From positions 1-64,000 of the IMG/VR virus record IMGVR_UViG_3300009408_000003: DNA of 64,000 nucleotides. One strand, written 5' to 3'. This document shows positions 10,696-28,581 of this stretch, piece by piece. A program made the translations under genes and the position numbers. The notes below the pieces were generated by a model. The model saw only the letters and a program-made list of their open reading frames with translations. It ran no database searches and had not been told where the DNA came from. Within the stretch, counting starts at the first letter, position 1, and each line of letters starts with the position of its first letter. The DNA is from a virus.

Positions 10696-10706
10696 TAAGA
10701 TATATC

Positions 10707-12770: not shown

Positions 12771-14375
12771 TTAAATAAGAGCTAAATCTTTTACATAAAT
12801 TTTACCATAAAATTCAGGTCTAACCAATTTCTTAGCATATCTCGTCATTACACCGCGTCTAGGAGTAAAATTTGTTGGATCATATACAAGTGGTGTCATA
12901 ATTAATGGTACATATGGTGCATAAACTGCACCACTTTCTAAGAAGTTAGTACCTTTAAATCCTAACAATATTTCATTAGATGTCATATATGGATTTTTAT
13001 ACACTTGGTATCTGTTACTCATAGATCCAATTTGAGTTACACCTGCTGCGAATGTTAATGCATCCTTATCAGCATTTACTGTAAATCCTGGGATTGATTC
13101 AAGGATTGTAGCTACATCAGGAGAACATACTACGAAATTAGCGCCACCCCTTAATGTTAATTGGTGAATCTTATTAGATACTTTATTTATTTTAATACCT
13201 AAAGTTTGATACCATGTATTTTTTTGGTATGCAAATGCTGCGTTAGCACCACTCCATAATCCAGAAGTTGGGTCATATTCTTCTCCAACAGTTGTTGACC
13301 AATAATCAACACTTAAAGCATTAGATTTAAGTAAATCAAGTATTTCTAAGTCAATTTCTAATGAAATATACTCAGATAACATTGATGTTAATTCAGCTTC
13401 TGCATCAATTGAATGATAAGCATTTAAATCTTGAGCCAATTCAGGTGTCCAAACGGCTTTTAATTTACGTGTTTTAGCAACAATTGGTTCAGATTTTAAT
13501 TCTAAATTAACTTCTGGGATACCTATATCAGTTGCTGGTTCTGTTGGTGTTTTATCTTCAAAATCACCTCTGTTAGAAGCAATTGGTTGTTGAGAATATT
13601 TAAATTCATAAGTACCAGCTCCTAATGCTGCTGTTTCTTTTACAAAGAACACAAAATCAGTTGCTGTTTTTTGTGAATGAGCAGGATAGAATGCGTCTGC
13701 TGCAACGAATGCAGAAGATGATACATAGAATGAACGTACCGCATCAACATCAGGTCTTGTGAACGCAGATTGTGCTATAGTTACTTTTTGAATACTTCCA
13801 GCTGCGATAGATGCAGATAATGATGCATCAAAACCTACTTCTGCCCATGATGCAGTTGCAAATGTTAATGAACCAGTTCCAACTCCTGATAATGTTTGAT
13901 CATTTATAGAGTATGCGAATCTACCTTCACCATATAAACCTTTTACGGCTGCGTCAGTTGATCCTAATTTAGTACTGTTACCACCAAATACTGATGTTCC
14001 AGCAAATGCAGGGTTACCTGCTTGGTTTGTGCCATATTTAAAATCAAGATAGAATATTAATCCTGATGGTAAGTTCATTGGTTGAACTGACACGAATTCT
14101 TTAGCTGCGATTTCTCCGAAGATACGTCTTACTAAAGGTAAAGCCACACCACTCCATTCTTCTGAACCTGCAGAAGTACCGGTAGCAGTTGCTTCATCAA
14201 GCAATTGTTTTGCTTGGTTTTCTAACAACACGGCTACTTGTCCTTGTTGTGTTTTTTCTAAACCTTCTAAAAGTCCAGTTTTTTCCCATTTTCCTTTTAA
14301 TCCACGAGTTTCCTCTAGCATTACGGCTTGTGGGTTCTTTCCTTCCATTAATTTAGATAAATCGAAATTTGCCAT
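12771..14375 (-). CDS. Major capsid protein (T4 gp23-like)
   Basis: LPLVRR, VSVQPMNLPSGLIFYLD, AKTRKLKAVWTPELAQDLNAYHSIDAEAEL, YAPYVPL and GVMTRYA. Confidence 0.95.
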   Translation of the reverse strand: MANFDLSKLMEGKNPQAVMLEETRGLKGKWEKTGLLEGLEKTQQGQVAVLLENQAKQLLDEATATGTSAGSEEWSGVALPLVRRIFGEIAAKEFVSVQPMNLPSGLIFYLDFKYGTNQAGNPAFAGTSVFGGNSTKLGSTDAAVKGLYGEGRFAYSINDQTLSGVGTGSLTFATASWAEVGFDASLSASIAAGSIQKVTIAQSAFTRPDVDAVRSFYVSSSAFVAADAFYPAHSQKTATDFVFFVKETAALGAGTYEFKYSQQPIASNRGDFEDKTPTEPATDIGIPEVNLELKSEPIVAKTRKLKAVWTPELAQDLNAYHSIDAEAELTSMLSEYISLEIDLEILDLLKSNALSVDYWSTTVGEEYDPTSGLWSGANAAFAYQKNTWYQTLGIKINKVSNKIHQLTLRGGANFVVCSPDVATILESIPGFTVNADKDALTFAAGVTQIGSMSNRYQVYKNPYMTSNEILLGFKGTNFLESGAVYAPYVPLIMTPLVYDPTNFTPRRGVMTRYAKKLVRPEFYGKIYVKDLALI

Positions 14376-14391: not shown

Positions 14392-15612
14392 TTATTTAAT
14401 GTTAGCTAATTCTTTGAATCTGTCCGCCATAGTATTGCCTTCAGCAATAATTTCTTTTTTCGGTGCGGTACTTGGTACAGCATTCGATGCGAATGATTCA
14501 GTTATTTTTTTTCTTCGTTTAGCAGTACTACCACTTAATTTAAGTGATTCTGCTAATGTAGCGAATACAAGTTTTACTTCTCTCACGTTAATTGTTCTAT
14601 CTAATGTTTCAACCACTTTCATTTTTTGATTGTTGGTTAAATCATAAGAACGGAATAATTTGTTACTATAAAGTAATTTTGCGTTTAATAAGTTAACTTC
14701 ATTGATTGTTCCTTTTAATGAACGAATTGCATTATAAGCTTCTTTAAGTTCATTTTCTTTTTCGTCATTCCAAGGTTTATCGTTGTCATCTGTTTCATCA
14801 GAGCCTTTTTGACTATCATCATCATCGCCATATCCCATTTCTTTTAGGATTTCGTCAAGATCAATATCGTCATCATCATCTGTTTCATCAGTGTCTGCAG
14901 TTGAACTATCATCTTGTCCATCTGCTGCTGGTTCTTTGGTAACGGTGGTATTGACATCATAATCAGCATCAGTATCACCATCTGCATCTGTGTCATTATC
15001 ATTATCGTTATCATCATCAGTAGAATCTTCATTCATACTGTCATCATCATTATCATCTTCAGAGTCATCATCAAGTTCACCTTCTAATTCCGCGATAATA
15101 GATTCTAAATCTAAATCATCATCGGTAGGTGTATCTTCATCTGTATCTGAATCAGCATCCATGTCATCATCTTCTGTTACTGATGCTCCTGTTGGATCAT
15201 CGATTACACCGTCTCCGTAATAATCTTCTCCATCACCTTCTTTAACAACTGATGTGTTGCTATCTTCTGAACCTACTGGTTTAGAGATTTTTGTAGTTTC
15301 TGGGTCAAGTTTAGTATGAACGCCAGTTGGTTGTTCAACACTTGTACCAGGTGCTGCTCCGTCTTTACCTGCTCCTAATTTAGTAGAAGCACCTGTTGGT
15401 GCATCTTCAGCTCCATATTCCTCGTTTTGCATATCATCATCATCTTCCTCATCATCTCCTTCAATTTCTTGTTGAAGTTTTTGTGAAAGAATAGATTGTA
15501 AACGTGGAGTAAAAGCTTCTTCAAGAGCAATTTTAGCATTGGCGATTGCAGTTTCACGTACAGCCTTAGCATCAGCAATTGCTTCTTTTAACAATTTTGA
15601 ATTGTTTTTCAT
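14392..15612 (-). CDS. Prohead scaffolding/core protein (T4 gp22-like), very acidic
   Basis: Directly upstream of MCP; LLKEAIADAKAVRETAIANAK, a D/E-rich centre, EVNLLNAKLLY and a C-terminal RFKELANI. Confidence 0.8.
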   Translation of the reverse strand: MKNNSKLLKEAIADAKAVRETAIANAKIALEEAFTPRLQSILSQKLQQEIEGDDEEDDDDMQNEEYGAEDAPTGASTKLGAGKDGAAPGTSVEQPTGVHTKLDPETTKISKPVGSEDSNTSVVKEGDGEDYYGDGVIDDPTGASVTEDDDMDADSDTDEDTPTDDDLDLESIIAELEGELDDDSEDDNDDDSMNEDSTDDDNDNDNDTDADGDTDADYDVNTTVTKEPAADGQDDSSTADTDETDDDDDIDLDEILKEMGYGDDDDSQKGSDETDDNDKPWNDEKENELKEAYNAIRSLKGTINEVNLLNAKLLYSNKLFRSYDLTNNQKMKVVETLDRTINVREVKLVFATLAESLKLSGSTAKRRKKITESFASNAVPSTAPKKEIIAEGNTMADRFKELANIK

Positions 15613-15803: not shown

Positions 15804-15834
15804 AAAAAAAAGAGGATTATTGTATTAATCCTCT
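15804..15834 (-). terminator. Terminator after bS21
   Basis: AGAGGATTA-TTGTAT-TAATCCTCT hairpin with a U-tract on the minus strand. Confidence 0.7.
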
Positions 15835-16037
15835 AGTTTTTCTGTTATTATTCTTCTATTATTGGCTCTAATTGCCTGCTGCTTCTTTTTTCGTCTAGCA
15901 GTTGTTGGTTTTACATATGCTTGTCTATCACGTAATTCTTGGAGATGACCGGATTCTATAATACGTCTTTTAAAGATTTTAAGAGCCCTAACAATATCGC
16001 CATTTCTTACTTCTACTTTAATTTTTTCTTTACTCAT
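15825..16037 (-). CDS. rpsU: Phage-encoded ribosomal protein bS21
   Basis: KVEVRNGDIVRALKIFKR...ELRDRQAYVKPTTARRKKK matches the S21 pattern. Confidence 0.85.
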   Translation of the reverse strand: MSKEKIKVEVRNGDIVRALKIFKRRIIESGHLQELRDRQAYVKPTTARRKKKQQAIRANNRRIITEKLED

Positions 16038-16051
16038 TTTATTATTTTTAA

Positions 16052-17926
16052 TTATTTACTTAAAAGGTATAAAGCTTCTTCAGCTTCTTCTCTATTTTTA
16101 ATTTTTGAGTCTTTATACATATCTACTTTATAACCACGTAATGCATTTGATAACCATTTCATATATTTAGGATAACCAATTTTATCTTCTAGTTTTTCTA
16201 GTTCATCATAAAAGTTTCGTTCGTTTCCATTAACTTTTTTAAAAAAATGTTTAGCTAGTTTATATTCATCATTATGACTATTTATATATGTTGCATTAGA
16301 TACATCGTATTCACTTAATTTTTTAGGTTCAACTGATTCTTGTAGTCCACCTGCTATATTGCCTATTACAAAATCTGGATTAGATACATATTTTTTATTT
16401 ATCAATATAAATTTTTGTTTATCATCTTTTTTCTTTTTAAGTATAATATGAGGTGGTATATTATCCATCATTATAAAATCAGAGTTCCAACCTATTTTTT
16501 TAAAAATTGGACTTAAACCTATTAATTTTTTTTCCTTAGATACTATTTTTTTTATTTTATTAATATCATCTGGAGAAAAATTTTCAGTTATTGATTCATT
16601 TGTATTTTTTCTGTATTTTTTATATATATTATAGTATTTTTCTGCTTGTTTCGTAGCATCATTAACAAAATCTATATCTTCTATAATATCACCATCTATA
16701 TATTTTTTTGCTGATAAATCTAATTCTCTACTCCAAAGTTTAATAAAGTTTTCTAAATTGAATTTACTACGTATAACTTCATTATTAAGAAATTTCTTAA
16801 ATACACTTACACTAAATCCATTTTTAAATAAACTGTAAAATTTATTATCGGTTTTTCCGTCATCCATTGAATACAAACTTAGTGCGCCTTTAACATCGCG
16901 TGTATTTACTGTTTCAGTTATTGATTCATTTTGTTTTGTATATTTGTTAATAACATCTTTTGGTGTCATTAAAGCTGATGGTGGTATTTCTGTTATTGTG
17001 TGTGTTGGACTAGTTAATTTTTTCGCATTTACTAATTTATGTGCGCGTGCTAATTTTAATATTAACTCTATTCGTTGAGTATTTGATAATGGCGAATGTT
17101 TAGAATTCATTATATAATCATCAGAAGCCCATCCAGCGCCAGTTACAATATCATGTAGCATATTATTTACAATACTATCTTCTTTTATTGCTACATTCTC
17201 TTTAATAAATTTTTTAGTAAACAAATCTTTAAGATGTTTTAAAGTTAATTTATTTTTTGGTAATTGTGGAAATTCTTGATATGATTTCTTTACAAAAATT
17301 TTAAAACTTGGTGATTCTTGAGCAATTGTGACAAGTGTAGCTGTTACGGACTCTTTTAATATAGATTCAGTTACAACTGATTTAATATATTTAGTTGAAA
17401 TAACTTGGGTACTTGTTGGGTCTGTTCTAACTTTAAGTGGATTAAATGATTCTATTTTACCTTTAATAGTACGTCCATCTTTTAAAGTTATTTTAACAGT
17501 ATCGCCTTTTTTAGCATTAATTGTTTCGGTTTTCAGTCCTAATCGTTTTTTCATTTCGTTTTCGTTAATATCTCCCAACTTATAGTATCGTGATAATATG
17601 TGTCCCATATCTTCATATAATCCAGTTAATCGTTGATCAAGTTTTTTAGATTCAGTTACAACTGTATCAAATTGTCCGCCTAATTTTTTTAATTCACCCA
17701 TGTTTCGTTTAACTGTACGTCTATCAAACCAATCATCTGTTTCATTTATAGCTAATTCTTGAGCGGCTTCAATAATTCCACCAAGTGTTTCAGCAATCTC
17801 TGTAATATCTGATTTTCTATCTAATTGGTCTTGATATTTATTATAGGTAGATACTATTTCTAAAAAATGACGTTTTGTATCATTTGAAAATTGTTTTGGG
17901 GATTCTATGTTATTATTAGTATTCAT
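16052..17926 (-). CDS. Mosaic head-associated protein
   Basis: Helical N-domain (HFLEIVSTYNKY...LYEDMGHILSRYY) followed by several short modules bounded by ILKE/IKE/NESITE/LQES linkers. Confidence 0.7.
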   Translation of the reverse strand: MNTNNNIESPKQFSNDTKRHFLEIVSTYNKYQDQLDRKSDITEIAETLGGIIEAAQELAINETDDWFDRRTVKRNMGELKKLGGQFDTVVTESKKLDQRLTGLYEDMGHILSRYYKLGDINENEMKKRLGLKTETINAKKGDTVKITLKDGRTIKGKIESFNPLKVRTDPTSTQVISTKYIKSVVTESILKESVTATLVTIAQESPSFKIFVKKSYQEFPQLPKNKLTLKHLKDLFTKKFIKENVAIKEDSIVNNMLHDIVTGAGWASDDYIMNSKHSPLSNTQRIELILKLARAHKLVNAKKLTSPTHTITEIPPSALMTPKDVINKYTKQNESITETVNTRDVKGALSLYSMDDGKTDNKFYSLFKNGFSVSVFKKFLNNEVIRSKFNLENFIKLWSRELDLSAKKYIDGDIIEDIDFVNDATKQAEKYYNIYKKYRKNTNESITENFSPDDINKIKKIVSKEKKLIGLSPIFKKIGWNSDFIMMDNIPPHIILKKKKDDKQKFILINKKYVSNPDFVIGNIAGGLQESVEPKKLSEYDVSNATYINSHNDEYKLAKHFFKKVNGNERNFYDELEKLEDKIGYPKYMKWLSNALRGYKVDMYKDSKIKNREEAEEALYLLSK

Positions 17927-17977
17927 TATTAGTTTAAACTTATTTTATATATATATTATATTAAATTAAAACCCATT

Positions 17978-19669
17978 CTATTTTTTTGTGTCATCTATTG
18001 TAGATATTGTAGAAATGATAGATTTTAATGATACAGATTTAATATTTTCTGTAATTGATTGTATTGTATTTGCTAATTTGTTAGACCCGTTCTTTTTTAA
18101 ATCATTCGTGATTGCATCTATAATATCTTTTCCTGTCCATTGAGCTTTAGCAGATATAGTTGTTGCTATTTTTTCTGTTTTTTCGTCTGGATTTACATAA
18201 TCAGATCCAAATACAGATTTTTTTCTCCAATCGTTATAATTTGGACTAGAAACTCCACCTTTAGGACGTGATAACATTGGATCTTTTTCAAATTCTGGGT
18301 TGTTTTCCAATTTAGCTACCATTTTTCTAGCTTCTTCATCAAAATTAGCATCAACTAATGCAGAATATGCAATTTGTGCCATAGTTTTTTCATATTTTTC
18401 TTTGCCAAGTTTTTTTGGAGTAATACCTGTTTTTTGAATTAAAGAACTAGTAAATTTATTAATTTTTGGATTTCCAACACTAACATTATTATTAGTAGTT
18501 GCTGAACCTTGTTTTTTAAGTTGTGTATTAATATCTTTAATACGTTGATTATTAGCATCCATTTTTTGTTTAACCGCTCTTGAACTTGCAGTTTTTCCTG
18601 CTAATATATCTTGTTGTTTTATTAATTTCTTTTTTAATTTTAATAAATCATCGGTACTTTTAGTATCACTACTAGTATCAGCTTTCTTAGTAGCTACACC
18701 AATTTTTTCAGCAAATTTGTTAGCCATTGGAATAATATCTTTTGCATCTCTATCGATTACAATAACTTTCATATTTTTTGGCTTGCCAGTTTGAATTGCT
18801 CGTGATGTTATAGCAGCCCAACGATGATGACCATCTATTATATATCCATCTCTACTCACATATATAGGTGCGGTTATTCCTGAATTATTAGGATCTTTTT
18901 CTAAAGCTTTTGTCATACTTGCAACCTTAGTACCTATTAGTTCGTTTTGAGTGGCTTTTAGTGAGTCTGATGGTAATTCTGTTTGGTATGTTTTTATTCC
19001 GTTTGTTGCCAGCATTTTTCTAAATAATGGTTCAGTATCAACTTCTCCCGATTTATCCTTTTTCATTTTAGCAGCAATCGTGTTTGCTTCTGGTTTACCT
19101 TTAAATTGAGGCATTTCTGAACGAGGAATACCTAAATTGTTATCACAATATAAGTTAGTACCTGGTATAGTTATTTTACATAAATTATAGTTAGGTGCAG
19201 TTTTTCCTTTTGCACGTGCTTCTTTAGCTAGTTCATCAAGTTTATCAATTTTCATTGATATGATGTGTCGTTCTTTAGGTGAAATATCATCAATATCAGA
19301 TTTAGCATCAAATGTTTTTTTGTTAGCTTTAGGTAATAAATCTGTTATTTTAGTGGATGATACTTCTTTAGGTTTTGGAATATTTGTTATAGATTGACTA
19401 CTTTTGTTATCGGTTGAACTTGCGGATGTTGACTTATCAAATATATTTACTTTTGGTTTAGTACTAGTTGATGTAGTTGCTTTTTTATCTGTCTTTGGTT
19501 TATCTACCACGTAGTTACCGTGCTCATCCTTAATAAATGTTGGCGCATTAGCATCTGTTTCTTTACCCGTTTGTTTGTATCGTCCATGACCAACATGAGT
19601 ATATTTAGAGTCATCTGATTCATTTACTAAAAATGGTCGTAATGTTACTAATCCGCCTATTTTTATCAT
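17978..19669 (-). CDS. Mosaic protein with a ParB/Srx-like domain
   Basis: PIYVSRDGYIIDGHHRWAA, with NLGIPRSEMPQF upstream. The N-terminal YTHVGHGRYKQ module is shared with 30021..35762. Confidence 0.7.
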   Translation of the reverse strand: MIKIGGLVTLRPFLVNESDDSKYTHVGHGRYKQTGKETDANAPTFIKDEHGNYVVDKPKTDKKATTSTSTKPKVNIFDKSTSASSTDNKSSQSITNIPKPKEVSSTKITDLLPKANKKTFDAKSDIDDISPKERHIISMKIDKLDELAKEARAKGKTAPNYNLCKITIPGTNLYCDNNLGIPRSEMPQFKGKPEANTIAAKMKKDKSGEVDTEPLFRKMLATNGIKTYQTELPSDSLKATQNELIGTKVASMTKALEKDPNNSGITAPIYVSRDGYIIDGHHRWAAITSRAIQTGKPKNMKVIVIDRDAKDIIPMANKFAEKIGVATKKADTSSDTKSTDDLLKLKKKLIKQQDILAGKTASSRAVKQKMDANNQRIKDINTQLKKQGSATTNNNVSVGNPKINKFTSSLIQKTGITPKKLGKEKYEKTMAQIAYSALVDANFDEEARKMVAKLENNPEFEKDPMLSRPKGGVSSPNYNDWRKKSVFGSDYVNPDEKTEKIATTISAKAQWTGKDIIDAITNDLKKNGSNKLANTIQSITENIKSVSLKSIISTISTIDDTKK

Positions 19670-19707
19670 AATTTATTTTAATTTGTTAAGGTTTAATTTT
19701 ATTATAA

Positions 19708-20355
19708 TTATTTAAACCATTTAATACCTGTTTTATATTTTTTGTCAAATTTTTTTATTTCGTTAATTAAAAAATCTGCAGTTTGTGTTTCAGTTAATTT
19801 TTGTGGTATAAGTTTAGTTATTTTTTGTAAAGAACGTTCATCTCTAATAAAATAAGTTATTCCTTCATAATTACCTCTATAAATACCATTATGTATTGCA
19901 ACTTTTCCCATACGATTATCTACAAATAATTCAATAAGATTACCATATGAGTCTCTATTAACATCATATAATTTTTTTTCCAAAATTGATGCCAATTTTA
20001 TCATATAACCATTAGCTAATTTGTTACCTTGACTTGAAAGTTTTGCACCGATTGAATTATATTTTTGTTGAGCTGCATCTAATTCTTTTTTAGCTTTTAT
20101 TACTTCAGCATCTGTGTTTTTATATGAATCTATAATATCTGCAATTTTAGTTTCATTAAGTGAACTAGGATTGTTTCCTGTTATAATTGCTTTATGAGTA
20201 TATAAATCTAGTTTACCGTTTTCAGTAATTCTAACATCATATTGAGTTTTACGAATATCGGATATTCCTTTTGAAACGTGTGTTCCAACTTCTTTTTTAA
20301 CTGAACCTAGCTCAATTTTATTTTCTGCTAAATATTTTTTTATATCAAATCCCAT
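19708..20355 (-). CDS. Putative internal head protein with an MGFDIKKYLAENKI N-terminal tag
   Basis: First 14 aa are identical to 20359..20688; internal SLNE linker. Confidence 0.65.
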   Translation of the reverse strand: MGFDIKKYLAENKIELGSVKKEVGTHVSKGISDIRKTQYDVRITENGKLDLYTHKAIITGNNPSSLNETKIADIIDSYKNTDAEVIKAKKELDAAQQKYNSIGAKLSSQGNKLANGYMIKLASILEKKLYDVNRDSYGNLIELFVDNRMGKVAIHNGIYRGNYEGITYFIRDERSLQKITKLIPQKLTETQTADFLINEIKKFDKKYKTGIKWFK

Positions 20356-20373
20356 AATTTATTTTATTTTTAT
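20315..20373. repeat. 59-bp exact duplication of a gene start (second copy 20648..20706)
   Basis: ATTTTATTTTCTGCTAAATATTTTTTTATATCAAATCCCATAATTTATTTTATTTTTAT is present twice. Confidence 0.85.
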
Positions 20374-20688
20374 TTTATTAATATGTTGCAATGATGCCTT
20401 TATTTCAGCTAAATCTGATGATAATATTTTTACATATTCTCCGTCAAAATTTTCTTTATTATTTATACGTGCAGTTGTAAAAACTTTTATTAAATATTCA
20501 AGATTTTTTATGGTGTCTTCTTTTGCTAATTTTACGTTACCTATTCCTTTATTATTATCTATATCAGTAGCCGCTATTTGCAAATATGCTTCTTTTGGAA
20601 ATTTACTTCTATCTCCGGCTTCATACATATTATGCATGCCAGTCCTTATTTTATTTTCTGCTAAATATTTTTTTATATCAAATCCCAT
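20359..20688 (-). CDS. Putative internal head protein with an MGFDIKKYLAENKI N-terminal tag
   Basis: Same 14-aa start as the downstream gene; the rest is unrelated. Confidence 0.65.
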   Translation of the reverse strand: MGFDIKKYLAENKIRTGMHNMYEAGDRSKFPKEAYLQIAATDIDNNKGIGNVKLAKEDTIKNLEYLIKVFTTARINNKENFDGEYVKILSSDLAEIKASLQHINKIKIK

Positions 20689-20702
20689 AATTTATTTTAT
20701 TT

Positions 20703-21290
20703 TTATATTAATTCTTCTATTATTTCTCGCATTAATGATTGTGCCTTACAATATTTACTGCATACTATTGGTGTACCAAAAGTTTTTGATTCATTAACCG
20801 GTCTCATAAATGCACCTTGTGTTGACGGATTAGATACAAAATCCCAACTAATTAATTCAAAATCTTCGCCTACTCGTACTCCGCCTTCATTACGAGCAGT
20901 AACTGATCCCATTCCACGAGATGAAATTCCCAATAAAATACCAGCTCTTAATAATTCTTTTAAAATGTTTCCAGATGGGGTTGGTAATACTTCAATTGTA
21001 CCAACTAAATCATTTCCATCCCAATGAATTTCTCTAACGTTGTGTGATACGTTTTTTAGATTAATTACTGAACTGTCCGGGTGATCTAATTCACCTAAAG
21101 CGCGTCGTTCTTTAATTAATTGACCATATTTTACTGCTTCGCGTTCTAATACGCGTTTTGGATATACTCTTTCATTTTGATTTGGAGCATCTGCACGTTG
21201 TAAAACACCGCGAACAATAGTTCTACCGTGCGAATCTTCATTAAGTTGTCCTTTAAACAAACTTGTTTCTATTAGTAATTGTCTTTCCAT
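20703..21290 (-). CDS. Prohead protease (T4 gp21-like)
   Basis: NQNERVYP, ALGELDHP, VSH, GISSRGMGS and FELISWDFVSNPST. Confidence 0.92.
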   Translation of the reverse strand: MERQLLIETSLFKGQLNEDSHGRTIVRGVLQRADAPNQNERVYPKRVLEREAVKYGQLIKERRALGELDHPDSSVINLKNVSHNVREIHWDGNDLVGTIEVLPTPSGNILKELLRAGILLGISSRGMGSVTARNEGGVRVGEDFELISWDFVSNPSTQGAFMRPVNESKTFGTPIVCSKYCKAQSLMREIIEELI

Positions 21291-21346
21291 TTATTATATA
21301 AGTTCTATTTTTAAATTTAAATGAATATTCATTTCTTTTAATAAAA

Positions 21347-21523
21347 TTATCCTCCCCAACTTCTTCTTTTTTTGAATAAATCGAAAAATATTGCTGAAAC
21401 TTCCTTCCTAATTATTGAACGTATTTTTTCAATATCTTCTGAGTCGAGATTTTCATTAACTCTACCCCACTTAACATTTTCAATTTCTTCGTTTATTATT
21501 TTTATTATAGCAGATGTTTTCAT
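21347..21523 (-). CDS. Small head-region protein, 58 aa (not in the ORF track)
   Basis: MKTSAIIKIINEEIENVKWGRVNENLDSEDIEKIRSIIRKEVSAIFFDLFKKRRSWGG*; it accounts for the antisense ORF 21372..21647. Confidence 0.65.
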   Translation of the reverse strand: MKTSAIIKIINEEIENVKWGRVNENLDSEDIEKIRSIIRKEVSAIFFDLFKKRRSWGG

Positions 21524-21685
21524 ACATTACATTTTATTTTGTTGGTCTCGGATATTTCTTTTGCAATTAATTTTTAATTTTATTCCAAATTTCTGGTGTA
21601 AATTTAGGTGGTACTTGATTTTTTTGTCCAATATACAAAACGAATAACATCTGTTTTAGGATAGTTCCATCATTATTTAATACCT

Positions 21686-22588
21686 TTACCGTTTACCAAA
21701 ATCCTTTACAGTTTCATTTATAGGATACCAATTTTTACGACTTGACGGTGCAAGTGATTTCCAGATTTCTACTCCTTGTTTTTTTAATCCTGCTTTATTT
21801 ATTTTACGAATAATATTAGTAATAGTATCAAATTGTGCTTTACCAGCATTATATGCGCGATGATCATCTGAACGTTCATAATACCAATCAAATCGACTTA
21901 ATTCTTTTTTAAGTTGATTTAATAAATCAGAAGATGAATCTTCGTTTATATTTTCATCAATTGCATTAGGATATTTTGTTTTGCTTGCTAAATCTAATAA
22001 TTTCTGTATATCTTGCGGATTATTTCTATTATATTTATTCGCGTTTTTCTTATTTTTAAATATTGCTGCTACTTTTTTTCCATTATCATTAATCATGATA
22101 ATAATACCGTTTTTACCATAATATCGTTCATCAGAAATTGAAAGTTTATTGTTAGTATTTTCATTTATAGATTCGGATGTTCCTTTTGGCCAATGTTGTT
22201 TTGCACGAATTGCAAAAGTAATTTGATGTTCTTTTTTAGTTATTTTATCAGGAACATCTTGACCTTTATCTTGATATGTTTTACTTTGTTTTTTTAACGC
22301 AGTTAATTCAGATTTCAATTGTTCAATAGTTTTAGCAGAATTTTCTCCGGTTGATTTTATATCAGCATCACCTAACCATTTTTCATTAAGTTCATCTTTA
22401 GATTTCCATGCTGCGTTAATTTTATTGAAAAATCTGGGTTTTTCATCTTTACTCATTTCTGGAATACTTTTACCAGTTTTTGCTAAAGCTCGTTTGAAAA
22501 ATTCTTTATACTTATTATCAGAAGTTATAACTTCTCTAACTATTTCTTTTAATTTAGTTCTTGTAATTTTCATATTATTGTTTTCCAA
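21686..22588 (-). CDS. Mosaic head-associated protein
   Basis: MKITRTKLKEIVRE leader; modules separated by LNE, SESINE, DENINE and INE. Confidence 0.65.
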   Translation of the reverse strand: MENNNMKITRTKLKEIVREVITSDNKYKEFFKRALAKTGKSIPEMSKDEKPRFFNKINAAWKSKDELNEKWLGDADIKSTGENSAKTIEQLKSELTALKKQSKTYQDKGQDVPDKITKKEHQITFAIRAKQHWPKGTSESINENTNNKLSISDERYYGKNGIIIMINDNGKKVAAIFKNKKNANKYNRNNPQDIQKLLDLASKTKYPNAIDENINEDSSSDLLNQLKKELSRFDWYYERSDDHRAYNAGKAQFDTITNIIRKINKAGLKKQGVEIWKSLAPSSRKNWYPINETVKDFGKR

Positions 22589-22624
22589 CCTTAATTTTTT
22601 CGTTTATATCTATTGATTTCATAT

Positions 22625-24043
22625 TTATTTTTCAATTTCTTTTAAAGTTCTTGCAATATTTACAAGACGTTCCTTTATTTTATAAATATGTCTATTTGTT
22701 CGTTTCCAATAGGAATCTGATTCTAATTCATTAATATTCTTGATTTTATTATACCAACCTAGAAATTTTTCCACTTCTTGTAATTGGTTTTGTAAACCTT
22801 TTAATCCCATAGCAAGTTTTTTATGTGGAGATATGGATTTATCATTTTTTAAATTTAGCCACCTATTCACTTTAGGTGGTGCAACTTCTTTTATATTTTT
22901 TTTACCTAATTTTTTTAAAATTGAATTTACTGAATCGTTACCTTTAATTGTTAATATTCGTTTACCATTATAATATAAATCTTTATCAACTACATGCCAC
23001 ATTCCTTTTTTATAGATATTAAGTTCATGTCGTAATACAGTTTCTAGTGAAGTTGGTAATTTTGATTTTGGCCAAAACACTCCTTCTTTTATATTTTCAA
23101 AAATTACATTAAATCTATTATTTATTGATTCATCAACATTTGTTTCTTGCGGAACTGCATTAAATTTATATTTCATCCATGATACTGAATGACTGTTGTC
23201 AGACCAATCTAATGTCCATCTATTCGGATTCCATGAATTATGTTTATTTAATATTACAACAGCATCACCTAATTTAAATTCAATTTTATGATTATCAAAT
23301 GTAGTTTCAGCTATTGATTCATCTTCAACAGTTGCAAGTTTTGTATAATATTTTGGATCTTCAAATAAATGATCTAATGTAATTTCTTTAGCAAGATTTA
23401 TATCTGTTGTGTGTTCTATTTCAACTTTAATTCCTCGTTGAAATTCTTTTGTTAACTCATTAATATCATTATTATGCTTGCGTGCAATATCTCCAAGATT
23501 TAATCCTTTAGCTAAACCACCAGGAATTAAATCTTGAATTTCTTTTATTGAATGAGCTGTATTAGATTCATTAGCATTTTCTGCAAATACCAATAAATCT
23601 TTAGTACGTTTTATTAATGTTTCTTTTGAAATACCAAGTGAATCAGCAGTTACACTCAATAAAAAGTTATTTTTAAGAAAAGCTTTTACTTGGGGTTTAG
23701 TTGCGATTGCTGATTTAAAGTAAGTATGTGCTATATTATTAAGTTCTTTTGATGTAAGTTTTCCTTTAAAATACGCAGTCATCGCTTCACTTTTAGTATT
23801 ATAAGTTGCTTCACTTATATTATGTACATCATTACCAATAACTTCATAACCGGCTTGGGTAGAAACCGTTTTAGTTTTATCTTTTGATTTTTTAGAATTA
23901 TCTCCGAATACATTCGGAGTATTATACCCAGCAACAGCGCCTGTAGTTGTTTCTTCTAATTCTTCATCTTTCTTAATTTCAAGAAATACTTCATCGATTA
24001 TTTCATCAATATATTTAGACAGTTTTTTTCTTTTTTGCATCAT
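22625..24043 (-). CDS. Mosaic head-associated protein containing a DUF5661-like module
   Basis: IPGGLAKG...GIKVEIEH...ITLDHLFEDPKYYTKL, with many NES/DES/IKE linkers. Confidence 0.7.
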   Translation of the reverse strand: MMQKRKKLSKYIDEIIDEVFLEIKKDEELEETTTGAVAGYNTPNVFGDNSKKSKDKTKTVSTQAGYEVIGNDVHNISEATYNTKSEAMTAYFKGKLTSKELNNIAHTYFKSAIATKPQVKAFLKNNFLLSVTADSLGISKETLIKRTKDLLVFAENANESNTAHSIKEIQDLIPGGLAKGLNLGDIARKHNNDINELTKEFQRGIKVEIEHTTDINLAKEITLDHLFEDPKYYTKLATVEDESIAETTFDNHKIEFKLGDAVVILNKHNSWNPNRWTLDWSDNSHSVSWMKYKFNAVPQETNVDESINNRFNVIFENIKEGVFWPKSKLPTSLETVLRHELNIYKKGMWHVVDKDLYYNGKRILTIKGNDSVNSILKKLGKKNIKEVAPPKVNRWLNLKNDKSISPHKKLAMGLKGLQNQLQEVEKFLGWYNKIKNINELESDSYWKRTNRHIYKIKERLVNIARTLKEIEK

Positions 24044-24899
24044 TGATTTCCTTAATTAGTTCATACGATAACATTAACGCAGAAACGTATGAATCAGTTA
24101 TTTTTTTACCAATCTTTTGTTTTTTTAATACATTAATAGTTTCTTTTAATTTAATTTTGGTTACTGTATCACTTATGCTAGAATACATATTGTATAATTC
24201 AGTTATTACATTTTTAAGTTGTTTATTATAATATTCTCCGAATTTAGACGTATTATTCACATTATTTATGTATTCACGTAATAATGATTTTTGCAAAACA
24301 TTTAAATTTGTATATTTTTTATTAAAACTTTCAACCAAAATCTTATATGTAAGTAATCTTAAATCTTTTGTTTGGTGTTTATATGTTTCAAACACCATAT
24401 CAGAAATTGGTTTAGCTGATTTAGCAGGGTTAGATGCAATGTGTTCTACTAATGTATATTTTGAATTAAATACATCTTGAATATTTGATATATCATTCTT
24501 TTTTGCTTCAAATAATTTATTAATCGATGCCAATACTTTATAATTTGTTACTGGTGATGATAAAAATTGAGAAATATCAAAATTTTCTTTGATAGCTTTT
24601 ATAAGTTTATATTTTTCCCTTGCCAATTTATCTTCATTTATTTTGCTTCGGGCATCTAATATAGCATCAATAAATTTTTCAGCTTTTGTTTCTGAATTAT
24701 ATTTTTCATTTATTAATAATGTATATAGTTTTAATTCTTTCGCTAGTTGAGTTTTATTACCAAAAAATTCTTGTATTATTTTTTTAGCTTTTTCTTCTGG
24801 ACTATTATTTAAGATTTCTAGTGTGATTTGTCTAGTTAACAATTCAAAAAGAAATCCTGTATTTTTAAATTTCGAATGGCGAATCTTTGATTTTTTCAT
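24015..24899 (-). CDS. Conserved head-region protein (prohead core-like)
   Basis: KHS-type start IRHSKFKNTGFLFELLTRQIT; first gene after the portal. Confidence 0.65.
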   Translation of the reverse strand: MKKSKIRHSKFKNTGFLFELLTRQITLEILNNSPEEKAKKIIQEFFGNKTQLAKELKLYTLLINEKYNSETKAEKFIDAILDARSKINEDKLAREKYKLIKAIKENFDISQFLSSPVTNYKVLASINKLFEAKKNDISNIQDVFNSKYTLVEHIASNPAKSAKPISDMVFETYKHQTKDLRLLTYKILVESFNKKYTNLNVLQKSLLREYINNVNNTSKFGEYYNKQLKNVITELYNMYSSISDTVTKIKLKETINVLKKQKIGKKITDSYVSALMLSYELIKEINDAKKKKTV

Positions 24900-25164: not shown

Positions 25165-26892
25165 TTAATTATCATTAAGAATGTTAGATTCGTCTAGCAT
25201 ATTGTGTTGCTCACGTATAAGTTTAAATTTAGCTGATATTCCATTAATATATTTAGTAACTTGTTGTTCAGATTGGCGACCTGTAACTACTGATTGTCGT
25301 TCTTTGTTGCCCAATGGATCTCTACCGTATGGATGTTTATCTTTTCCATAAGTATTACCTTCGCGTGGGCGACCGCCAGTATCTTTTAACTCTTGACTTA
25401 ATTTATTTAAACTATCTTCTACATCAGTAGGTTTAGCCTGTTTGGCAGGGTCTATTCCATTACTTTGAATTGATTCTTGTCTAAATTTATCTTTTAAATC
25501 TTCGATAACTTTAGCACTTTCTAATTTACGTTCGTCTTTACTTAATTTAAAAATATTATCATATACCCAATCTTTTGAAAGCATATTTAAATCTTTAATA
25601 TCAGATGCTAATCTGATTTTTTCAGACCAAAGATTTACTTTTTCTTGTTCGTAAATTGTTGATGGATTAACTAATTGTAAATCAAAATCAGTTATTTCAT
25701 TACGAGGGATTCCATGTGAAAATAGATGAATTACACCAATTTTTGCTAATTCAGAAACAACTGTTCTTTGTATTCTATCGATTGTTCTTGCAAATCGTAC
25801 ATCTTCTGCAGCTAATGTTGCTTTTCCATTTACTTGTTCTTCATATCCTAAATATGCTTTTGGTATTTTTAATGCTGCAAATAATTTTGCTTTTAAATAA
25901 TCAATATCTTCAACTGCACTATATTCTAATCCACTTATATTTTCAATACTTGTACCACTATCTGAACCACGTACTGGTAAATAAAAATCTTCAGTAATAT
26001 TTTGCATATTATATTTTAAATTATAATCACCTGTATTTTTATCCAAAAATGGAACTTTTTTCATTTTATTAATAATACGTTGCATATAATTATCAACCTC
26101 ATTAGGTGTGATATTACCAATATCTATTTTAAATACACGTTTTTCTGGCGCTCTAATGATACGGTTTATTAACATAGCATCTTCCATTAATGATAATTGT
26201 TTCCATAATCGTCTACCATTTTCAATCATAGCTTTTCCGTATGGTAACCAATTGGTATCTGAAAGCAATCTAAAATGTGCCATTTCTGAATTATCATATT
26301 CACCTTTCATTAAAGGGTCATTTTCAACTTTAAATTTTACTGCGTTTGGAAAGTGTGGATCAAACCCTTCTATTCGTTCAGTATTATATACAGATTGAGG
26401 TATCACATTCACAACTCCTTTACCTTCTGCAATTTCTAAAGCAAGAAATAAATCGCCATATTTACAAAGATTTCGTACCCATGGCCATAAATTAAATTCA
26501 ATATTTAAAACATCATAATATAAATTATTTAATAATTCTCGGATTTTTGGATTATCAGAACGAATAACAAGAGAATCGCCTGCCTCATTTTTTAATGTAG
26601 ATTCATCAGCATATATATCCAATGCAGATGCTATTATTGGATCATTATCCATTGCATCAAAATCTCGAAATACTTCTCTACGTACTTGCTGATAGGCCAT
26701 TGATTGTGCTCCACCAGCTTGTTCATAGAATGATTTTTGAATTTTTGTATATCTATCACGCAACCCTGATAAATTTGTTTGTTGTTTATTATCACTATCA
26801 AAAACATTACGATTACCGTTTTTATCAATCGTTACTACTGCATTTGCTCTAAATAGTTTTCTTAATCTTGTAAAAAAGCCTGTATTTGCCAT
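25165..26892 (-). CDS. Portal protein (T4 gp20-like)
   Basis: IASALDIYADE, LSLMEDAMLINRIIRAPEKRVFKIDIGN, EDFYLPVRG and ALKIPKAYL. Confidence 0.93.
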   Translation of the reverse strand: MANTGFFTRLRKLFRANAVVTIDKNGNRNVFDSDNKQQTNLSGLRDRYTKIQKSFYEQAGGAQSMAYQQVRREVFRDFDAMDNDPIIASALDIYADESTLKNEAGDSLVIRSDNPKIRELLNNLYYDVLNIEFNLWPWVRNLCKYGDLFLALEIAEGKGVVNVIPQSVYNTERIEGFDPHFPNAVKFKVENDPLMKGEYDNSEMAHFRLLSDTNWLPYGKAMIENGRRLWKQLSLMEDAMLINRIIRAPEKRVFKIDIGNITPNEVDNYMQRIINKMKKVPFLDKNTGDYNLKYNMQNITEDFYLPVRGSDSGTSIENISGLEYSAVEDIDYLKAKLFAALKIPKAYLGYEEQVNGKATLAAEDVRFARTIDRIQRTVVSELAKIGVIHLFSHGIPRNEITDFDLQLVNPSTIYEQEKVNLWSEKIRLASDIKDLNMLSKDWVYDNIFKLSKDERKLESAKVIEDLKDKFRQESIQSNGIDPAKQAKPTDVEDSLNKLSQELKDTGGRPREGNTYGKDKHPYGRDPLGNKERQSVVTGRQSEQQVTKYINGISAKFKLIREQHNMLDESNILNDN

Positions 26893-26946: not shown

Positions 26947-28581
26947 TTATTTGGATGGTTCAGATGGAGGTTGACCAATTAACCACGTTAAATCTTCGGT
27001 TTCTCCGCCCACATTCCATGTCCACGGATTATCATTCATTTGAGTTCCACTATAAAATCCAGATTCTTGTTCAGTTTGTGATATATTACCTAATGCTTTT
27101 TGTGTTAAATCAATACCAGATTGTTTTAATCGTAATGCTGTATCGCGTACCCATAATCCAATTGACAAGGACATAACTAAATCATCATTGTATCCTCTCA
27201 TTGCTTGCGCTCGATTTCCAACCCAAATAAATACAAATAATTCATCAATTAACCTAGTCGAACGTATCGTGATTGATTTTTCTCTGAAATATAAATCTAG
27301 TTTAGAAATAATAAGTGGTCTTGTTCTGGCTGTTGTTGAAAATCCAGCAACCATACCACGTTCTTCAGCTCTATATTTATTATTCATTTGGCGTTGAGTA
27401 TCCACATATTTTAAATCTTTACTCATATAGAATAAATTACCATAATTTCTATCAATCACTTGTTGAATTACTGCCCAACCAATATTTGCGTTTTCTATTA
27501 CTAGTAGTGCATCATTATATTCGGTTGCTAATGATACTAAAAAGTTTCCATAATCTTTTGTAGATAATTTACCTTTATATTCAGCAACTTGTACAGCTGC
27601 TTCAATATCAAGTACATGACATGCCGAAAAATCGACAGAATCACCACGCGAAACATCAGCAACTACCATGTATGATTTAGCTGGGTCAGAATATTCCCAC
27701 CTCCATAAGTTTCCGTCAAAACCAGTCTTTTCTAGTGGTTCTTGACAATAGGTTTCTTTATAAAATGTTAATAATGATGCATCAATAACAGAATTACCAG
27801 AAGAAATAAAATCACAATCACATTCTTGTGCAGCTGCTTTAGGGCCTAATAAAAGTTCTTGTTCATCTCTCCAGTTTTGGTCTCGTTCTGGATGTAATGA
27901 CCAATGTAATCTAATCGGATTGAATTTATTCCAATCATTGCCTGTCAGATGTGCACCTTGCCATGTTTTATGAAAGAAATTACCTACTCCGTTTGGTGTA
28001 GATAATATAATTGCATCACCACCGGTTGATAATGTAGATTGAGCTGATATCCAAATATCATCTATACCATCGATAAATGCTGCTTCATCAAATACCAATA
28101 ATGATAATGATTCTGACCTACCTGCATCACCGCCAGATGATGTAGCTTTAATTTGTGATCCGTTTGTATAACGTAATGATAATTTATTATCTTCCTCTGC
28201 TTTTTGTTTTAGCCAAGACGGAAGATAATCATTCATTACACGTACTTTAGTTACTAAATTTTTTGCAACTTCTTGTTTTGTTGCAATTACTAATATATTA
28301 AAATCTTCATTAAATAGCATTTTCCATAAAGAATATCCGCCTACAAGTGTCGATATACCAGTTTGTCGAGATTTTAATACAATATTGTATCTGTTTTCAT
28401 TAAATTCCTTTAAAGTCTTTGCTTGATATGGATATAAATTAAATGGTATTTTTCCGCGAGTTGGATGCTGAATCATACAGTATTTTTTCATAAAATATAC
28501 AGGATCTACTGCACATTTCTTATACTCTAACTTTATAATATCCTTTAATGATAATTTTTTTTGGGGTTGATTTACTGCCAT
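26947..28581 (-). CDS. terL: Terminase large subunit (T4 gp17-like)
   Basis: IVLKSRQTGIST (Walker A), LLVFDEAAF (Walker B), ILSTPNG, and nuclease motifs VVADVSRG and GYNDDLVMS. Confidence 0.95.
   Translation of the reverse strand: MAVNQPQKKLSLKDIIKLEYKKCAVDPVYFMKKYCMIQHPTRGKIPFNLYPYQAKTLKEFNENRYNIVLKSRQTGISTLVGGYSLWKMLFNEDFNILVIATKQEVAKNLVTKVRVMNDYLPSWLKQKAEEDNKLSLRYTNGSQIKATSSGGDAGRSESLSLLVFDEAAFIDGIDDIWISAQSTLSTGGDAIILSTPNGVGNFFHKTWQGAHLTGNDWNKFNPIRLHWSLHPERDQNWRDEQELLLGPKAAAQECDCDFISSGNSVIDASLLTFYKETYCQEPLEKTGFDGNLWRWEYSDPAKSYMVVADVSRGDSVDFSACHVLDIEAAVQVAEYKGKLSTKDYGNFLVSLATEYNDALLVIENANIGWAVIQQVIDRNYGNLFYMSKDLKYVDTQRQMNNKYRAEERGMVAGFSTTARTRPLIISKLDLYFREKSITIRSTRLIDELFVFIWVGNRAQAMRGYNDDLVMSLSIGLWVRDTALRLKQSGIDLTQKALGNISQTEQESGFYSGTQMNDNPWTWNVGGETEDLTWLIGQPPSEPSK

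What the first reader, a model, noticed from the sequence alone, without database searches (positions are those of the whole stretch)
16052..24043. Candidate new system: head-cargo polyproteins built from swappable modules joined by prohead-protease-type linkers
Seen: the ORFs between portal and scaffold consist of 40-120-aa unrelated segments separated by (I/L/V)-(N/T/K/Q)-E motifs, often doubled. Examples: VVTESILKES, FIKENVAIKED, KQNESITET, NTNESITEN and GLQES (624 aa); ELEET, ISEAT, ANESN..SIKEI, EDESIAET, VDESI and IKEG (472 aa); LNEK, SESINEN, DENINED and INET (300 aa). The same motifs occur in MCP (KLME, MLEE), scaffold (LLKE, ITES) and the protease itself (LNED, VNES). Established: T4 gp21 cleaves after Glu in (I/L/F)-x-E and processes packaged internal proteins. 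Inference: core-binding carrier proteins pull variable cargo into the prohead, the protease frees each module, and a cocktail of effectors (anti-defence, DNA-binding) is injected. New modules could be added by in-frame insertion between E-linkers.
Basis: partly seen in the sequence, partly recalled or inferred. Interest (0 to 1): 0.85.

Follow-up and report, generated by a model that had tools for sequence, protein, structure and literature searches.

The report
Phage head-cargo polyproteins with protease linkers
An uncultured aquatic relative of phage T4 has small conserved head-core proteins carrying strings of swappable protein modules, joined by a short peptide that fits the cutting rule of its own head protease, so the modules are probably loaded into the capsid and cut apart there, although no cut has been measured.

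Summary
They are enriched (z 3-5 against shuffles) only in the genes between portal and capsid protein. No enrichment is seen in GroEL, terminase, the fibre-size proteins or the rest of the 120-kb record.

- Portal, the 294-aa protein, protease, scaffold C-part and capsid protein are collinear.
- The 472-, 300-, 624-, 215- and 563-aa proteins keep only short "carrier" parts.
- In 179 orthologues of the 472-aa protein, 0 to about 700 aa are inserted at one (V/I/L)-x-Glu site of a 157-aa minimal form.
- 176 of these 179 keep the site, and the same modules recur in different carriers.
- The linker is two tandem T4-gp21-type sites: hydrophobic-x-E|S-(V/I/L)-N-E|(A/G/S). In relatives its DNA is fixed even at silent positions.
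- AlphaFold models place the sites in low-confidence linkers between folded domains.

Cleavage, packaging and injection are inferred, not shown, and most modules have no known function.

I class this as a new variant of a known kind: T4 capsid-targeting and internal proteins combined with polyvalent proteins. The same scan has noted this theme in many other phage genomes.

The parts
22625..24043 (-). 472-aa carrier-plus-cargo protein. Conserved N part is residues 1-78 (nt 23810-24043) and conserved C part is residues 387-472 (nt 22628-22885). Between them lies a 308-aa cargo insert (nt 22886-23809) of about 4-5 modules: 79-168, 169-246 (DUF5661), 247-305, 306-320 and 321-386.
   Evidence: orthologues of 147-887 aa share only the N and C parts, and inserts sit at one (V/I/L)-x-E site of the 157-aa minimal form. 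DUF5661, 3e-14; low-pLDDT linkers at 159-174, from 242 on, and 382-392 hold E168, E246 and E386.
21686..22588 (-). 300-aa protein with a conserved carrier up to LNE69 followed by three basic modules (70-143, 144-216, 217-292). The true start is probably the ATG at 22573, because orthologues begin at residue 6.
   Evidence: orthologues of 63-449 aa share only residues 6-69, and the minimal forms stop there; module 135-216 recurs inside other carriers in L002 and L045.
16052..17926 (-). 624-aa protein. The conserved acidic N domain is residues 1-134 (nt 17525-17926). It is followed by about 6-7 modules cut at E192, E243/E249, E338, E416, E448 and E530/E539. The last module (540-624) recurs at the C end of many other proteins.
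   Evidence: 833 representative clusters match. The N domain occurs in proteins of 98-1039 aa. HSP boundaries peak at 122, 132, 193, 247, 338, 443 and 540; the short low-pLDDT linkers coincide with the sites.
17978..19669 (-). 563-aa basic protein with a possible leader ending at LVNE17|S, a ParB-like nuclease-type module (about 178-340), a conserved part at 398-541 and a SITE541|N site near the C end.
   Evidence: ParB-like PHROGs, 1e-5; only 398-541 is widely conserved; two of its modules recur, in the opposite order, in the 1913-aa protein.
19708..20355 (-). 215-aa protein starting with the tag MGFDIKKYLAE|NKI. Only residues 1-60 are conserved in relatives.
   Evidence: the 63-nt duplication is shown.
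20359..20688 (-). 109-aa protein with the same 14-aa N-terminal tag and an otherwise unrelated body. It has no homologue in the 80 loci.
20315..20377 (.). First copy of a 63-nt direct repeat that carries the translation start and the tag codons. The second copy is at 20648-20710 (98% identical).
   Evidence: family D1.
20703..21290 (-). Prohead protease of the T4 gp21 (S77) type. H70 and S123 align with the two alanine positions of the solved gp21 chain (residues 85 and 140 by my count, which I take to be the mutated His and Ser). The C-terminal VNE167|S aligns with T4 ITE|S.
   Evidence: Peptidase_S77, 8e-29; phrog_207, 5.5e-50. PDB 5JBL, 4e-20, with alignment.
24015..24899 (-). 294-aa basic (+22) protein, conserved and full-length in all relatives, with 14 hydrophobic-x-E sites. 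Probably a core or scaffold-like substrate.
   Evidence: (z 4.1-4.3).
14392..15612 (-). Acidic scaffold protein (net charge -73) with 17 hydrophobic-x-E sites.
   Evidence: Its position before the capsid gene matches T4 gp22.
12771..14375 (-). Major capsid protein (Gp23 family). Five conserved sites lie in its first 61 residues, consistent with a propeptide that may end at LLDE61|A.
   Evidence: the Gp23 match starts at residue 72; the sites are kept in 19 of 19 orthologues.
25165..26892 (-). T4-type portal protein, the upstream border of the variable region.
   Evidence: Portal_T4, 1e-63.
16583..16597 (-). Double linker NESITE|N. Its DNA is identical over 20 nt to the linker at 16913-16927 (NESITE|T).
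   Evidence: (family D2).
16913..16927 (-). Double linker NESITE|T.
23306..23320 (-). Double linker DESIAE|T at the end of the DUF5661 module.
22160..22174 (-). Double linker SESINE|N in the 300-aa protein. A second one (DENINE|D) lies at 21941-21955.

Best explanation
The region is the head-core gene cluster of an uncultured, AT-rich aquatic T4-type phage.

Several small lineage-specific proteins serve as carriers:
- a 157-aa protein, split here into the N and C parts of the 472-aa protein;
- a 65-aa protein, which is the start of the 300-aa protein;
- a roughly 130-aa acidic domain, which is the start of the 624-aa protein;
- an 11-aa tag on the 215- and 109-aa proteins.

These carriers have unrelated, mostly basic modules of 6-15 kDa fused to them in frame. 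Each module is bounded by the peptide hydrophobic-x-Glu|Ser-(Val/Ile/Leu)-Asn-Glu|(Ala/Gly/Ser), which is two adjacent sites of the T4 gp21 rule.

Proposed mechanism (inferred):
1. The carriers co-assemble with the acidic scaffold into the prohead core.
2. The S77 protease encoded in the middle of the cluster cuts after the Glu residues.
3. The modules are freed as separate internal proteins.
4. Some modules stay with the DNA and enter the host, as T4 IPI-III and Alt do.

Shown here: the motif enrichment, the carrier-plus-cargo architecture, insertion and exchange of modules exactly at the linkers, and the presence of the protease.
For: Site specificity to the head module:
- Motif enrichment is confined to head-module genes.

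Insertion at a single site:
- 179 distinct orthologues of the 472-aa protein range from 147 to 887 aa.
- 176 keep [ILVM]-x-E within 16 aa of the C-domain anchor, and 121 keep the double site.
- The logo is E .72, S .59, V/I/L, N .72, E 1.0, A .61, K (examples).
- The minimal forms have exactly one such site where the others carry inserts.

Other carriers:
- Minimal orthologues of the 300- and 624-aa proteins end where the window's cargo begins. Longer ones continue through hydrophobic-x-E|S.

Module exchange:
- The same modules sit in different carriers or stand alone in relatives.
- The portal-to-scaffold distance varies from 4.1 to 11.0 kb between collinear flanks.

Fit to the protease rule:
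- In 296 distinct double sites, the residue two before the first Glu is hydrophobic in 69% against a 28% background. The search pattern did not impose this, so both Glu fit the rule.
- The protease is of the gp21 type and has the catalytic His and Ser.
- gp21 cuts after L/I-x-E and processes core and internal proteins (PMC9026906).

Structure and charge:
- AlphaFold places the sites in low-confidence linkers between confident domains.
- Modal homology boundaries coincide with the sites.
- Modules are basic like the T4 internal proteins, and the scaffold is very acidic.
Against: - There are no proteomic, expression or structural data for any member, so cleavage, packaging and ejection are inferred from sequence alone.
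- The generic [IL]-x-E motif is only 1.3-fold enriched across relatives.
- Pooled BLAST endpoints are only 1.2-1.8-fold closer to sites than chance.
- The junction after the 624-aa N domain is L-K-T-E here, which is not canonical.
- The start of the conserved part of the 563-aa protein (about 398) has no site.
- The carriers show no homology to T4 gp67 or gp68.
- Fold searches gave no function for any module.
- The silent-site conservation of the linker DNA shows that something besides protease recognition shapes the linker.
Confidence: 0.68

Rival explanations
1. The linker is mainly a DNA-level junction. On this view a fixed 15-nt sequence acts as microhomology for recombination that swaps modules. 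The proteins then work as uncut multidomain (polyvalent) proteins, and the likeness to a protease site is secondary.
For: - In relatives, 27 of 39 non-redundant ESVNE contexts use the identical GAATCAGTAAACGAA, against about 7% expected from codon usage.
- In the window, two linkers are identical over 20 nt.
- Modules swap exactly at linkers.
Against: - The minimal carriers keep a single V/I/L-x-E site with varied sequence (VSE, VNE, INE, LKE, ITE) and without the fixed DNA.
- The first Glu of the double linker also has a hydrophobic residue two positions before it.
- Sites of the same type mark the capsid propeptide, the scaffold and the protease C end.
- The two roles do not exclude each other.
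Confidence: 0.12
2. The proteins are disposable core or scaffold mass. They are cut into peptides that leave the head, as T4 gp22, gp67 and gp68 are, and the variable modules serve only to fill or size the core. No module acts in the host.
For: - T4 core proteins are cut at many sites and expelled (PMC9026906).
- Most modules have no recognisable function.
- The 294-aa protein and the scaffold are equally rich in sites.
Against: - Several modules are confidently folded domains (pLDDT above 90).
- Cargo positions in the window and relatives hold ParB-like nuclease, DNA methylase, I-TevI-type and MC1 DNA-binding domains.
- Modules are shared with the 1913-aa enzyme chain next to the terminase.
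- The rapid turnover looks like arms-race cargo rather than a structural requirement.
Confidence: 0.15
3. The motifs are a compositional or helical artefact of AT-rich, Lys/Glu/Ile/Asn-rich proteins, and the 'modules' are ordinary fast-evolving regions.
For: - The genome is 28% G+C.
- Generic x-x-E motifs are common everywhere.
Against: - Shuffles that keep each protein's composition give z 3-5 only in the head genes.
- The double motif is 11.8-fold enriched.
- The P1 Glu is kept in 176 of 179 junctions next to unrelated inserts.
Confidence: 0.03

Closest known systems
Phage T4 internal proteins IPI, IPII, IPIII and Alt: capsid-targeting sequence plus gp21 processing (PMC9026906; Mullaney and Black 1996, cited there)
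   Same: - A gp21-type protease is present.
- Cutting would occur after Glu in L/I-x-E.
- A short shared N-terminal tag ends in such a site on unrelated proteins (215- and 109-aa proteins).
- The products would be small and basic.
- The cargo set varies between relatives.
   Different: - Here most cargo is not one protein per gene behind a 10-aa tag. It is strings of 3-7 modules fused to whole conserved domains of 65-136 aa, or inserted inside a 157-aa protein.
- The linker is a tandem double site, with DNA fixed at silent positions in relatives.
- No sequence homology to T4 IPs was seen, and none to gp67 or gp68 when tested.
Polyvalent proteins of phages and conjugative elements (Iyer, Burroughs, Anand, de Souza, Aravind 2017, PMC5512222)
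   Same: - Many unrelated domains sit in one polypeptide.
- The genes lie next to virion and packaging genes.
- Delivery with the DNA is predicted.
- A ParB-like domain is among the modules.
- Domain shuffling is extensive.
   Different: - That paper proposes release by peptidase domains embedded in the protein. No peptidase domain was found in these proteins.
- Here the seams match the separate head-maturation protease.
- The modules are much smaller and mostly of unknown family.
Inner-body and ejection proteins of giant phages phiKZ, 201phi2-1 and SPN3US, cut at many sites by a gp21-related protease (PMC10052503, PMC9026906)
   Same: - The protease is homologous.
- Several cuts after Glu occur within one head protein.
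- The proteins are packaged with the DNA and ejected.
   Different: - Those proteases prefer a small residue at P3 (A/S/G-x-E). [SAG]-x-E is not enriched here.
- Their multiple cuts lie in long propeptides that are removed, not between exchangeable folded modules.

Membership tests
T4-type prohead maturation system (gp21/S77 protease and its substrates) | An S77 (gp21-like) serine protease with catalytic His and Ser, encoded between portal and scaffold | tested here: met
   Peptidase_S77 at 8e-29. PDB 5JBL at 4e-20, with H70 and S123 aligned to the two alanine positions of that chain, which I take to be the mutated catalytic His and Ser. Gene order is portal, protease, scaffold, Gp23.
T4-type prohead maturation system (gp21/S77 protease and its substrates) | Substrates carry L/I-x-E sites, and the capsid protein has an N-terminal propeptide ending in one | tested here: met
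   Enrichment at z 2.4-4.3 for [IL]-x-E in head genes only. Five conserved sites lie in capsid residues 1-61, before the Gp23 match that starts at 72.
T4-type prohead maturation system (gp21/S77 protease and its substrates) | Substrates are actually cleaved in proheads | not testable with these tools
   No cultured member of this clade and no virion proteome was found.
T4 internal proteins with capsid-targeting sequence | A short N-terminal leader of about 10 aa, shared between otherwise unrelated proteins and ending in a gp21 site | tested here: met
   The 215- and 109-aa proteins share MGFDIKKYLAE|NKI through a 63-nt duplication and are otherwise unrelated. This does not hold for the 472-, 300- and 624-aa proteins, whose conserved parts are 65-136 aa.
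T4 internal proteins with capsid-targeting sequence | Sequence homology of the carriers to T4 core proteins gp67 or gp68 | tested here: not met
   hhalign of the minimal carrier alignment A4 against T4 gp68 and gp67 gives probability below 1%.
T4 internal proteins with capsid-targeting sequence | Packaged in the head and ejected with the DNA | not testable with these tools
   Needs virion proteomics and infection assays.
Polyvalent proteins (PMC5512222) | Two or more unrelated conflict-type domains in one polypeptide, encoded beside virion or packaging genes | tested here: inconclusive
   The multi-module build and the virion context are clear. Only ParB-like and DUF5661 could be named in the window, and MTase, DUF3008, MC1 and I-TevI DNA-binding in relatives. 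Most modules are unassigned.
Polyvalent proteins (PMC5512222) | An embedded peptidase domain proposed to release the domains | tested here: not met
   No peptidase family was found in the six window proteins or in 70 cargo proteins of relatives.
phiKZ/SPN3US-type head protein processing | Cleavage motif with a small residue at P3 (A/S/G-x-E) | tested here: not met
   [SAG]-x-E is not enriched in any head protein (z -2.3 to +0.4). P3 at the junctions is V/I/L/M.

The most novel reading that the evidence does not exclude
The linker has two roles at once. As a peptide it is a tandem cut site for the head protease. As a fixed 15-nt DNA word (GAATCAGTAAACGAA in relatives, GAATCAATA.CTGAA here) it is the crossover point at which co-infecting phages exchange cargo modules in frame. 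That would amount to a cassette system for capsid cargo spread through a very abundant clade of aquatic T4-type phages.
Probability: 0.3. Interest if true: 0.8.

Novelty: new variant of a known kind. Interest (0 to 1): 0.62.

Why it matters
What phages carry into the cell along with their DNA decides the first minutes of infection, yet it is known for only a handful of model phages.

If this reading holds, a very common group of aquatic T4-type phages loads a changeable set of small proteins. More than 599 related contigs and 833 protein clusters were found for one carrier alone. The loading rule would be simple and readable from sequence: a conserved carrier, a tandem protease site, and then a module.

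This would have three uses:
- It would let the injected proteome be predicted from metagenomes.
- It would point to hundreds of unknown small protein families as candidate early-acting factors.
- It would offer a natural design rule for loading foreign proteins into T4-type capsids.

Tried and rejected
- Megablast of the region against cultured phages found no match.
- Foldseek of both whole-chain AlphaFold models against the PDB found nothing at E <= 0.001.
- The ESM Atlas gave only DUF5661 again and a weak DUF7696 structural lead for module 540-624 of the 624-aa protein. Module functions therefore stay unknown.
- hhalign of the minimal carrier against T4 gp67 and gp68 found no relation.
- Conservation of individual sites in the collinear proteins (capsid, portal, protease, 294-aa) did not discriminate, because these proteins are about 70% identical throughout.
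- The pooled BLAST-endpoint test across 269 cargo proteins gave only 1.2-1.8-fold enrichment, because endpoints are fuzzy. The anchored junction counts and modal boundaries are the better measures.
- My first N-anchor pattern for the 472-aa orthologues caught only 45 of 179, so left-junction counts rest on that subset.
- The phiKZ-type motif [SAG]-x-E was considered and rejected.
- Literature searches found no description of this arrangement. They cover open-access papers only.
- Complex prediction, sequencing-run searches and read mapping were not used.
Full report
**What is there**

The window is AT-rich (about 28% G+C). It belongs to a 120-kb IMG/VR virus record estimated to be 71% complete. 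All genes of the region lie on the minus strand. In transcription order they are:
- terminase large subunit, 26947-28581;
- T4-type portal, 25165-26892;
- a 294-aa protein;
- a 472-aa protein;
- a 300-aa protein;
- S77 prohead protease, 20703-21290;
- 109-, 215-, 563- and 624-aa proteins;
- a ribosomal bS21 homologue;
- an acidic scaffold, 14392-15612;
- a Gp23-family capsid protein, 12771-14375.

The nearest cultured phages by capsid protein are Microcystis phage Mel-JY01 (52%), Flavobacterium phage vB_FspM_immuto (51%) and Rhodothermus phage RM378 (46%). There is no nucleotide-level match to any cultured phage.

I shuffled each of 43 ORFs to keep its composition. GroEL, terminase, portal, the 1640-, 1913- and 1948-aa proteins and all the others are at chance.

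Over the whole 120-kb record the generic motif occurs 16.0 times per 1000 aa in the head module against 4.2 elsewhere.

In the window, six of its nine occurrences fall in the 472-, 300- and 624-aa proteins. In 80 related loci it occurs 2.49 times per 1000 aa in the variable head genes against 0.21 in flanking genes, which is 11.8-fold. The generic [IL]-x-E is only 1.3-fold enriched there.

**Comparative anatomy**

The protease finds more than 599 related contigs in IMG/VR at 72-80% identity, and I analysed 80 loci. Terminase, portal, the 294-aa protein, protease, the C part of the scaffold, and the capsid protein are collinear and full-length. The proteins in question are not:
- The 472-aa protein keeps only residues 1-78 and 387-472.
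- The 300-aa protein keeps only residues 6-69.
- The 624-aa protein keeps only residues 4-134.
- The 215-aa protein keeps only residues 1-60.
- The 563-aa protein mainly keeps residues 398-541.

Orthologue lengths run 147-887, 63-449 and 154-874 aa for the first three. The portal-to-scaffold distance varies from 4.1 to 11.0 kb in 28 relatives and is 9.55 kb here.

The minimal 157-aa form of the 472-aa protein reads ...GY-x-V-x(5-7)-INE|AKVKRPVNRW..., or ...GYKRVSE|NRW... in a second subclade. Longer orthologues carry 0 to about 700 extra residues at exactly that site, with a site on both sides, for example ...DNISE|A[insert]...ESINE|AKVKRPVNRW. Among 179 distinct orthologues, 176 have [ILVM]-x-E within 16 residues upstream of the NRW anchor and 121 have the double form. 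The junction logo is E .72, S .59, V/I/L 1.0, N .72, E 1.0, A .61, K .77, while the sequence upstream of it is highly diverse.

Minimal orthologues of the 300- and 624-aa proteins simply stop where the window's cargo starts. Longer ones read on through ...RLG(I/M)xE|S... or ...KKTNESINE|D....

**Module exchange**

Internal modules of the window's proteins recur elsewhere:
- Residues 81-166 of the 472-aa protein occur at the N terminus of separate proteins in L002, L003 and L005, and internally in L007 and L010.
- Its DUF5661 module occurs in a 179-aa protein of L028 and in the giant proteins upstream of the terminase in L033, L034, L063 and L079.
- Residues 135-216 of the 300-aa protein occur inside an orthologue of the 472-aa protein in L045.
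- Two modules of the 563-aa protein recur in reverse order in the window's 1913-aa protein.

A full HMMER search with the 624-aa protein found 833 representative clusters. Its N domain sits in proteins of 98-1039 aa. Its last module (540-624) lies at the C end of proteins of 74-1039 aa and also occurs alone. The modal ends and starts of homology lie at 122, 132, 193, 247, 338, 443 and 540 in the 624-aa protein, and at 75-79, 160, 169, 246 and 392 in the 472-aa protein. Each is within a few residues of a site. A cruder pooled endpoint test gave only 1.2-1.8-fold enrichment.

**Do the linkers fit the protease?**

The protease matches Peptidase_S77 (8e-29) and the solved T4 gp21 (5JBL, 4e-20). 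His70 and Ser123 align with the two alanines of that chain, at residues 85 and 140 by my count, which I take to be the mutated catalytic His and Ser. Its VNE167|S aligns with T4's ITE|S near the C end.

T4 gp21 cuts after Glu in L/I-x-E. It dices the core proteins gp22, gp67 and gp68, and it removes the targeting leaders of IPI-III and Alt (PMC9026906).

In 296 distinct double linkers from this clade, the residue two before the first Glu is hydrophobic in 69% of cases against a 28% background. My search pattern did not demand this. The linker is therefore two tandem sites, hydrophobic-x-E|S-(V/I/L)-N-E|(A/G/S). The phiKZ/SPN3US-type rule with a small residue at P3 (PMC10052503) is not enriched.

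**Structure**

AlphaFold2 models built on patchwork alignments are of moderate quality (mean pLDDT 63.7 and 65.6).
- In the 472-aa protein, confident blocks at 79-158, 175-242 (pLDDT about 96), 330-381 and 393-472 are separated by low-confidence stretches at 159-174, from 242 on, and at 382-392. These stretches hold E168, E246 and E386.
- In the 624-aa protein, the short low-confidence stretches 135-138, 245-249, 412-416 and 438-450 coincide with E134, E243/E249, E416 and E448. The pLDDT-97 domain 540-624 starts right after E539.
- Two low-confidence stretches (161-168 and 172-180) hold no site, so the agreement is good but not perfect.

**Nature of the modules**

Cut at the sites, the window's proteins would give pieces of about 15-175 aa, most with pI 8-10. 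The carrier N domains are acidic and the scaffold carries a net charge of -73. This resembles the small basic T4 internal proteins.

Named domains are few. In the window there are a ParB-like module and DUF5661. Among 70 cargo proteins of relatives there are DUF3008 (6 proteins), DUF5661 (1 relative, plus the window's own 472-aa protein), N6/N4 DNA methylase (2), SAM methyltransferase (2), and single hits to I-TevI-type and MC1 DNA-binding domains, among others. Fold and atlas searches added nothing. 'Effector cocktail' is therefore an inference.

**A second layer: the DNA of the linker**

In the window, two linkers of the 624-aa gene are identical over 20 nt and a third, in the 472-aa gene, is 90% identical. 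In relatives, 27 of 39 ESVNE linkers with unrelated flanks use the identical GAATCAGTAAACGAA. Codon usage predicts about 7%. Val is GTA in 60 of 61 cases against 48% elsewhere, and Asn is AAC in 77% against 35%.

The linkers are therefore either copies of one DNA element or under selection at the nucleotide level. Either fits module exchange by recombination at the linker. Another agent's note on a different genome (e1-5339016) gave me this lead, and the test here is my own.

**The short tag**

The 215- and 109-aa proteins share MGFDIKKYLAE|NKI through a 63-nt duplication that includes the start codon (20315-20377 and 20648-20710), and they are otherwise unrelated. From memory, this resembles the 10-aa T4 targeting leader, which also ends in a hydrophobic-Ala-Glu site.

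**Comparison with what is known**

The arrangement works like T4's capsid-targeting and internal-protein system and like the polyvalent proteins of Iyer et al. (PMC5512222). It differs from both in several ways:
- The carriers are whole small proteins with no detectable homology to T4 gp67 or gp68.
- Cargo is concatenated and can sit inside a carrier.
- The linker is a tandem site with fixed DNA.
- No embedded peptidase is present.

The cultured relative immuto has only a compact version of the cluster, with a 73-aa homologue of the N part of the 472-aa protein. I found no paper describing this arrangement. The same scan has noted similar polyproteins with protease-type linkers in many other phage genomes. 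Those are unchecked AI notes and I do not count them as evidence.

**Verdict**

- The biochemical part (loading, cutting, injection and effector function) remains inference.
- I class it as a new variant of a known kind, with confidence 0.68 in the cut-cargo reading and interest 0.62.

Noticed in passing
window 15825-16037 (-): A 70-aa ribosomal protein bS21 homologue (Pfam Ribosomal_S21, 1.3e-14) sits inside the head module, directly before the scaffold gene. It is conserved at this position in most relatives.
   Followed up: partly
window 30021-35762 (-): A 1913-aa multi-enzyme protein next to the terminase carries cytidylyltransferase-like, CCA-adding/poly(A) polymerase and HD domains. It shares two modules with the 563-aa head protein. 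In relatives its positional counterparts carry the DUF5661 module of the 472-aa protein. Its generic site count is at chance (z about 0), with two double sites.
   Followed up: partly
window 35867-37483 (-): A phage-encoded GroEL-type chaperonin (Cpn60_TCP1, 4e-80).
   Followed up: no
L002:11779-12537, L026:12075-12809, L021:8916-9986 and others: Many cargo strings in relatives contain a short Cys-Gly repeat module (for example SKSDCGCGCGGTTVGGC) right after a linker. It may bind metal.
   Followed up: no
window 21686-22588 (-): The listed TTG start of the 300-aa ORF is probably wrong. All orthologues begin at its residue 6, an ATG at 22573.
   Followed up: partly
window 12771-14375 (-), residues 1-11: The capsid protein starts MANFDLSKLME|GK. 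This resembles the shared tag MGFDIKKYLAE|NK of the 215- and 109-aa proteins in length, in the FD(I/L)xK pattern and in the closing hydrophobic-x-E.
   Followed up: no
window 9245-12653 (-): Two large genes behind the capsid gene (648 aa with DUF7487, and 492 aa) share a 98-aa region at 27% identity. They have no counterpart at that position in the relatives examined, so they look like insertions.
   Followed up: no
L082 (Flavobacterium phage vB_FspM_immuto_3-5A) 11731-12972: The gene annotated 'DNA polymerase phi-like protein' sits between the protease and the capsid gene. By position it is the scaffold protein, so the annotation is probably an artefact of its acidic low-complexity sequence.
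   Followed up: no
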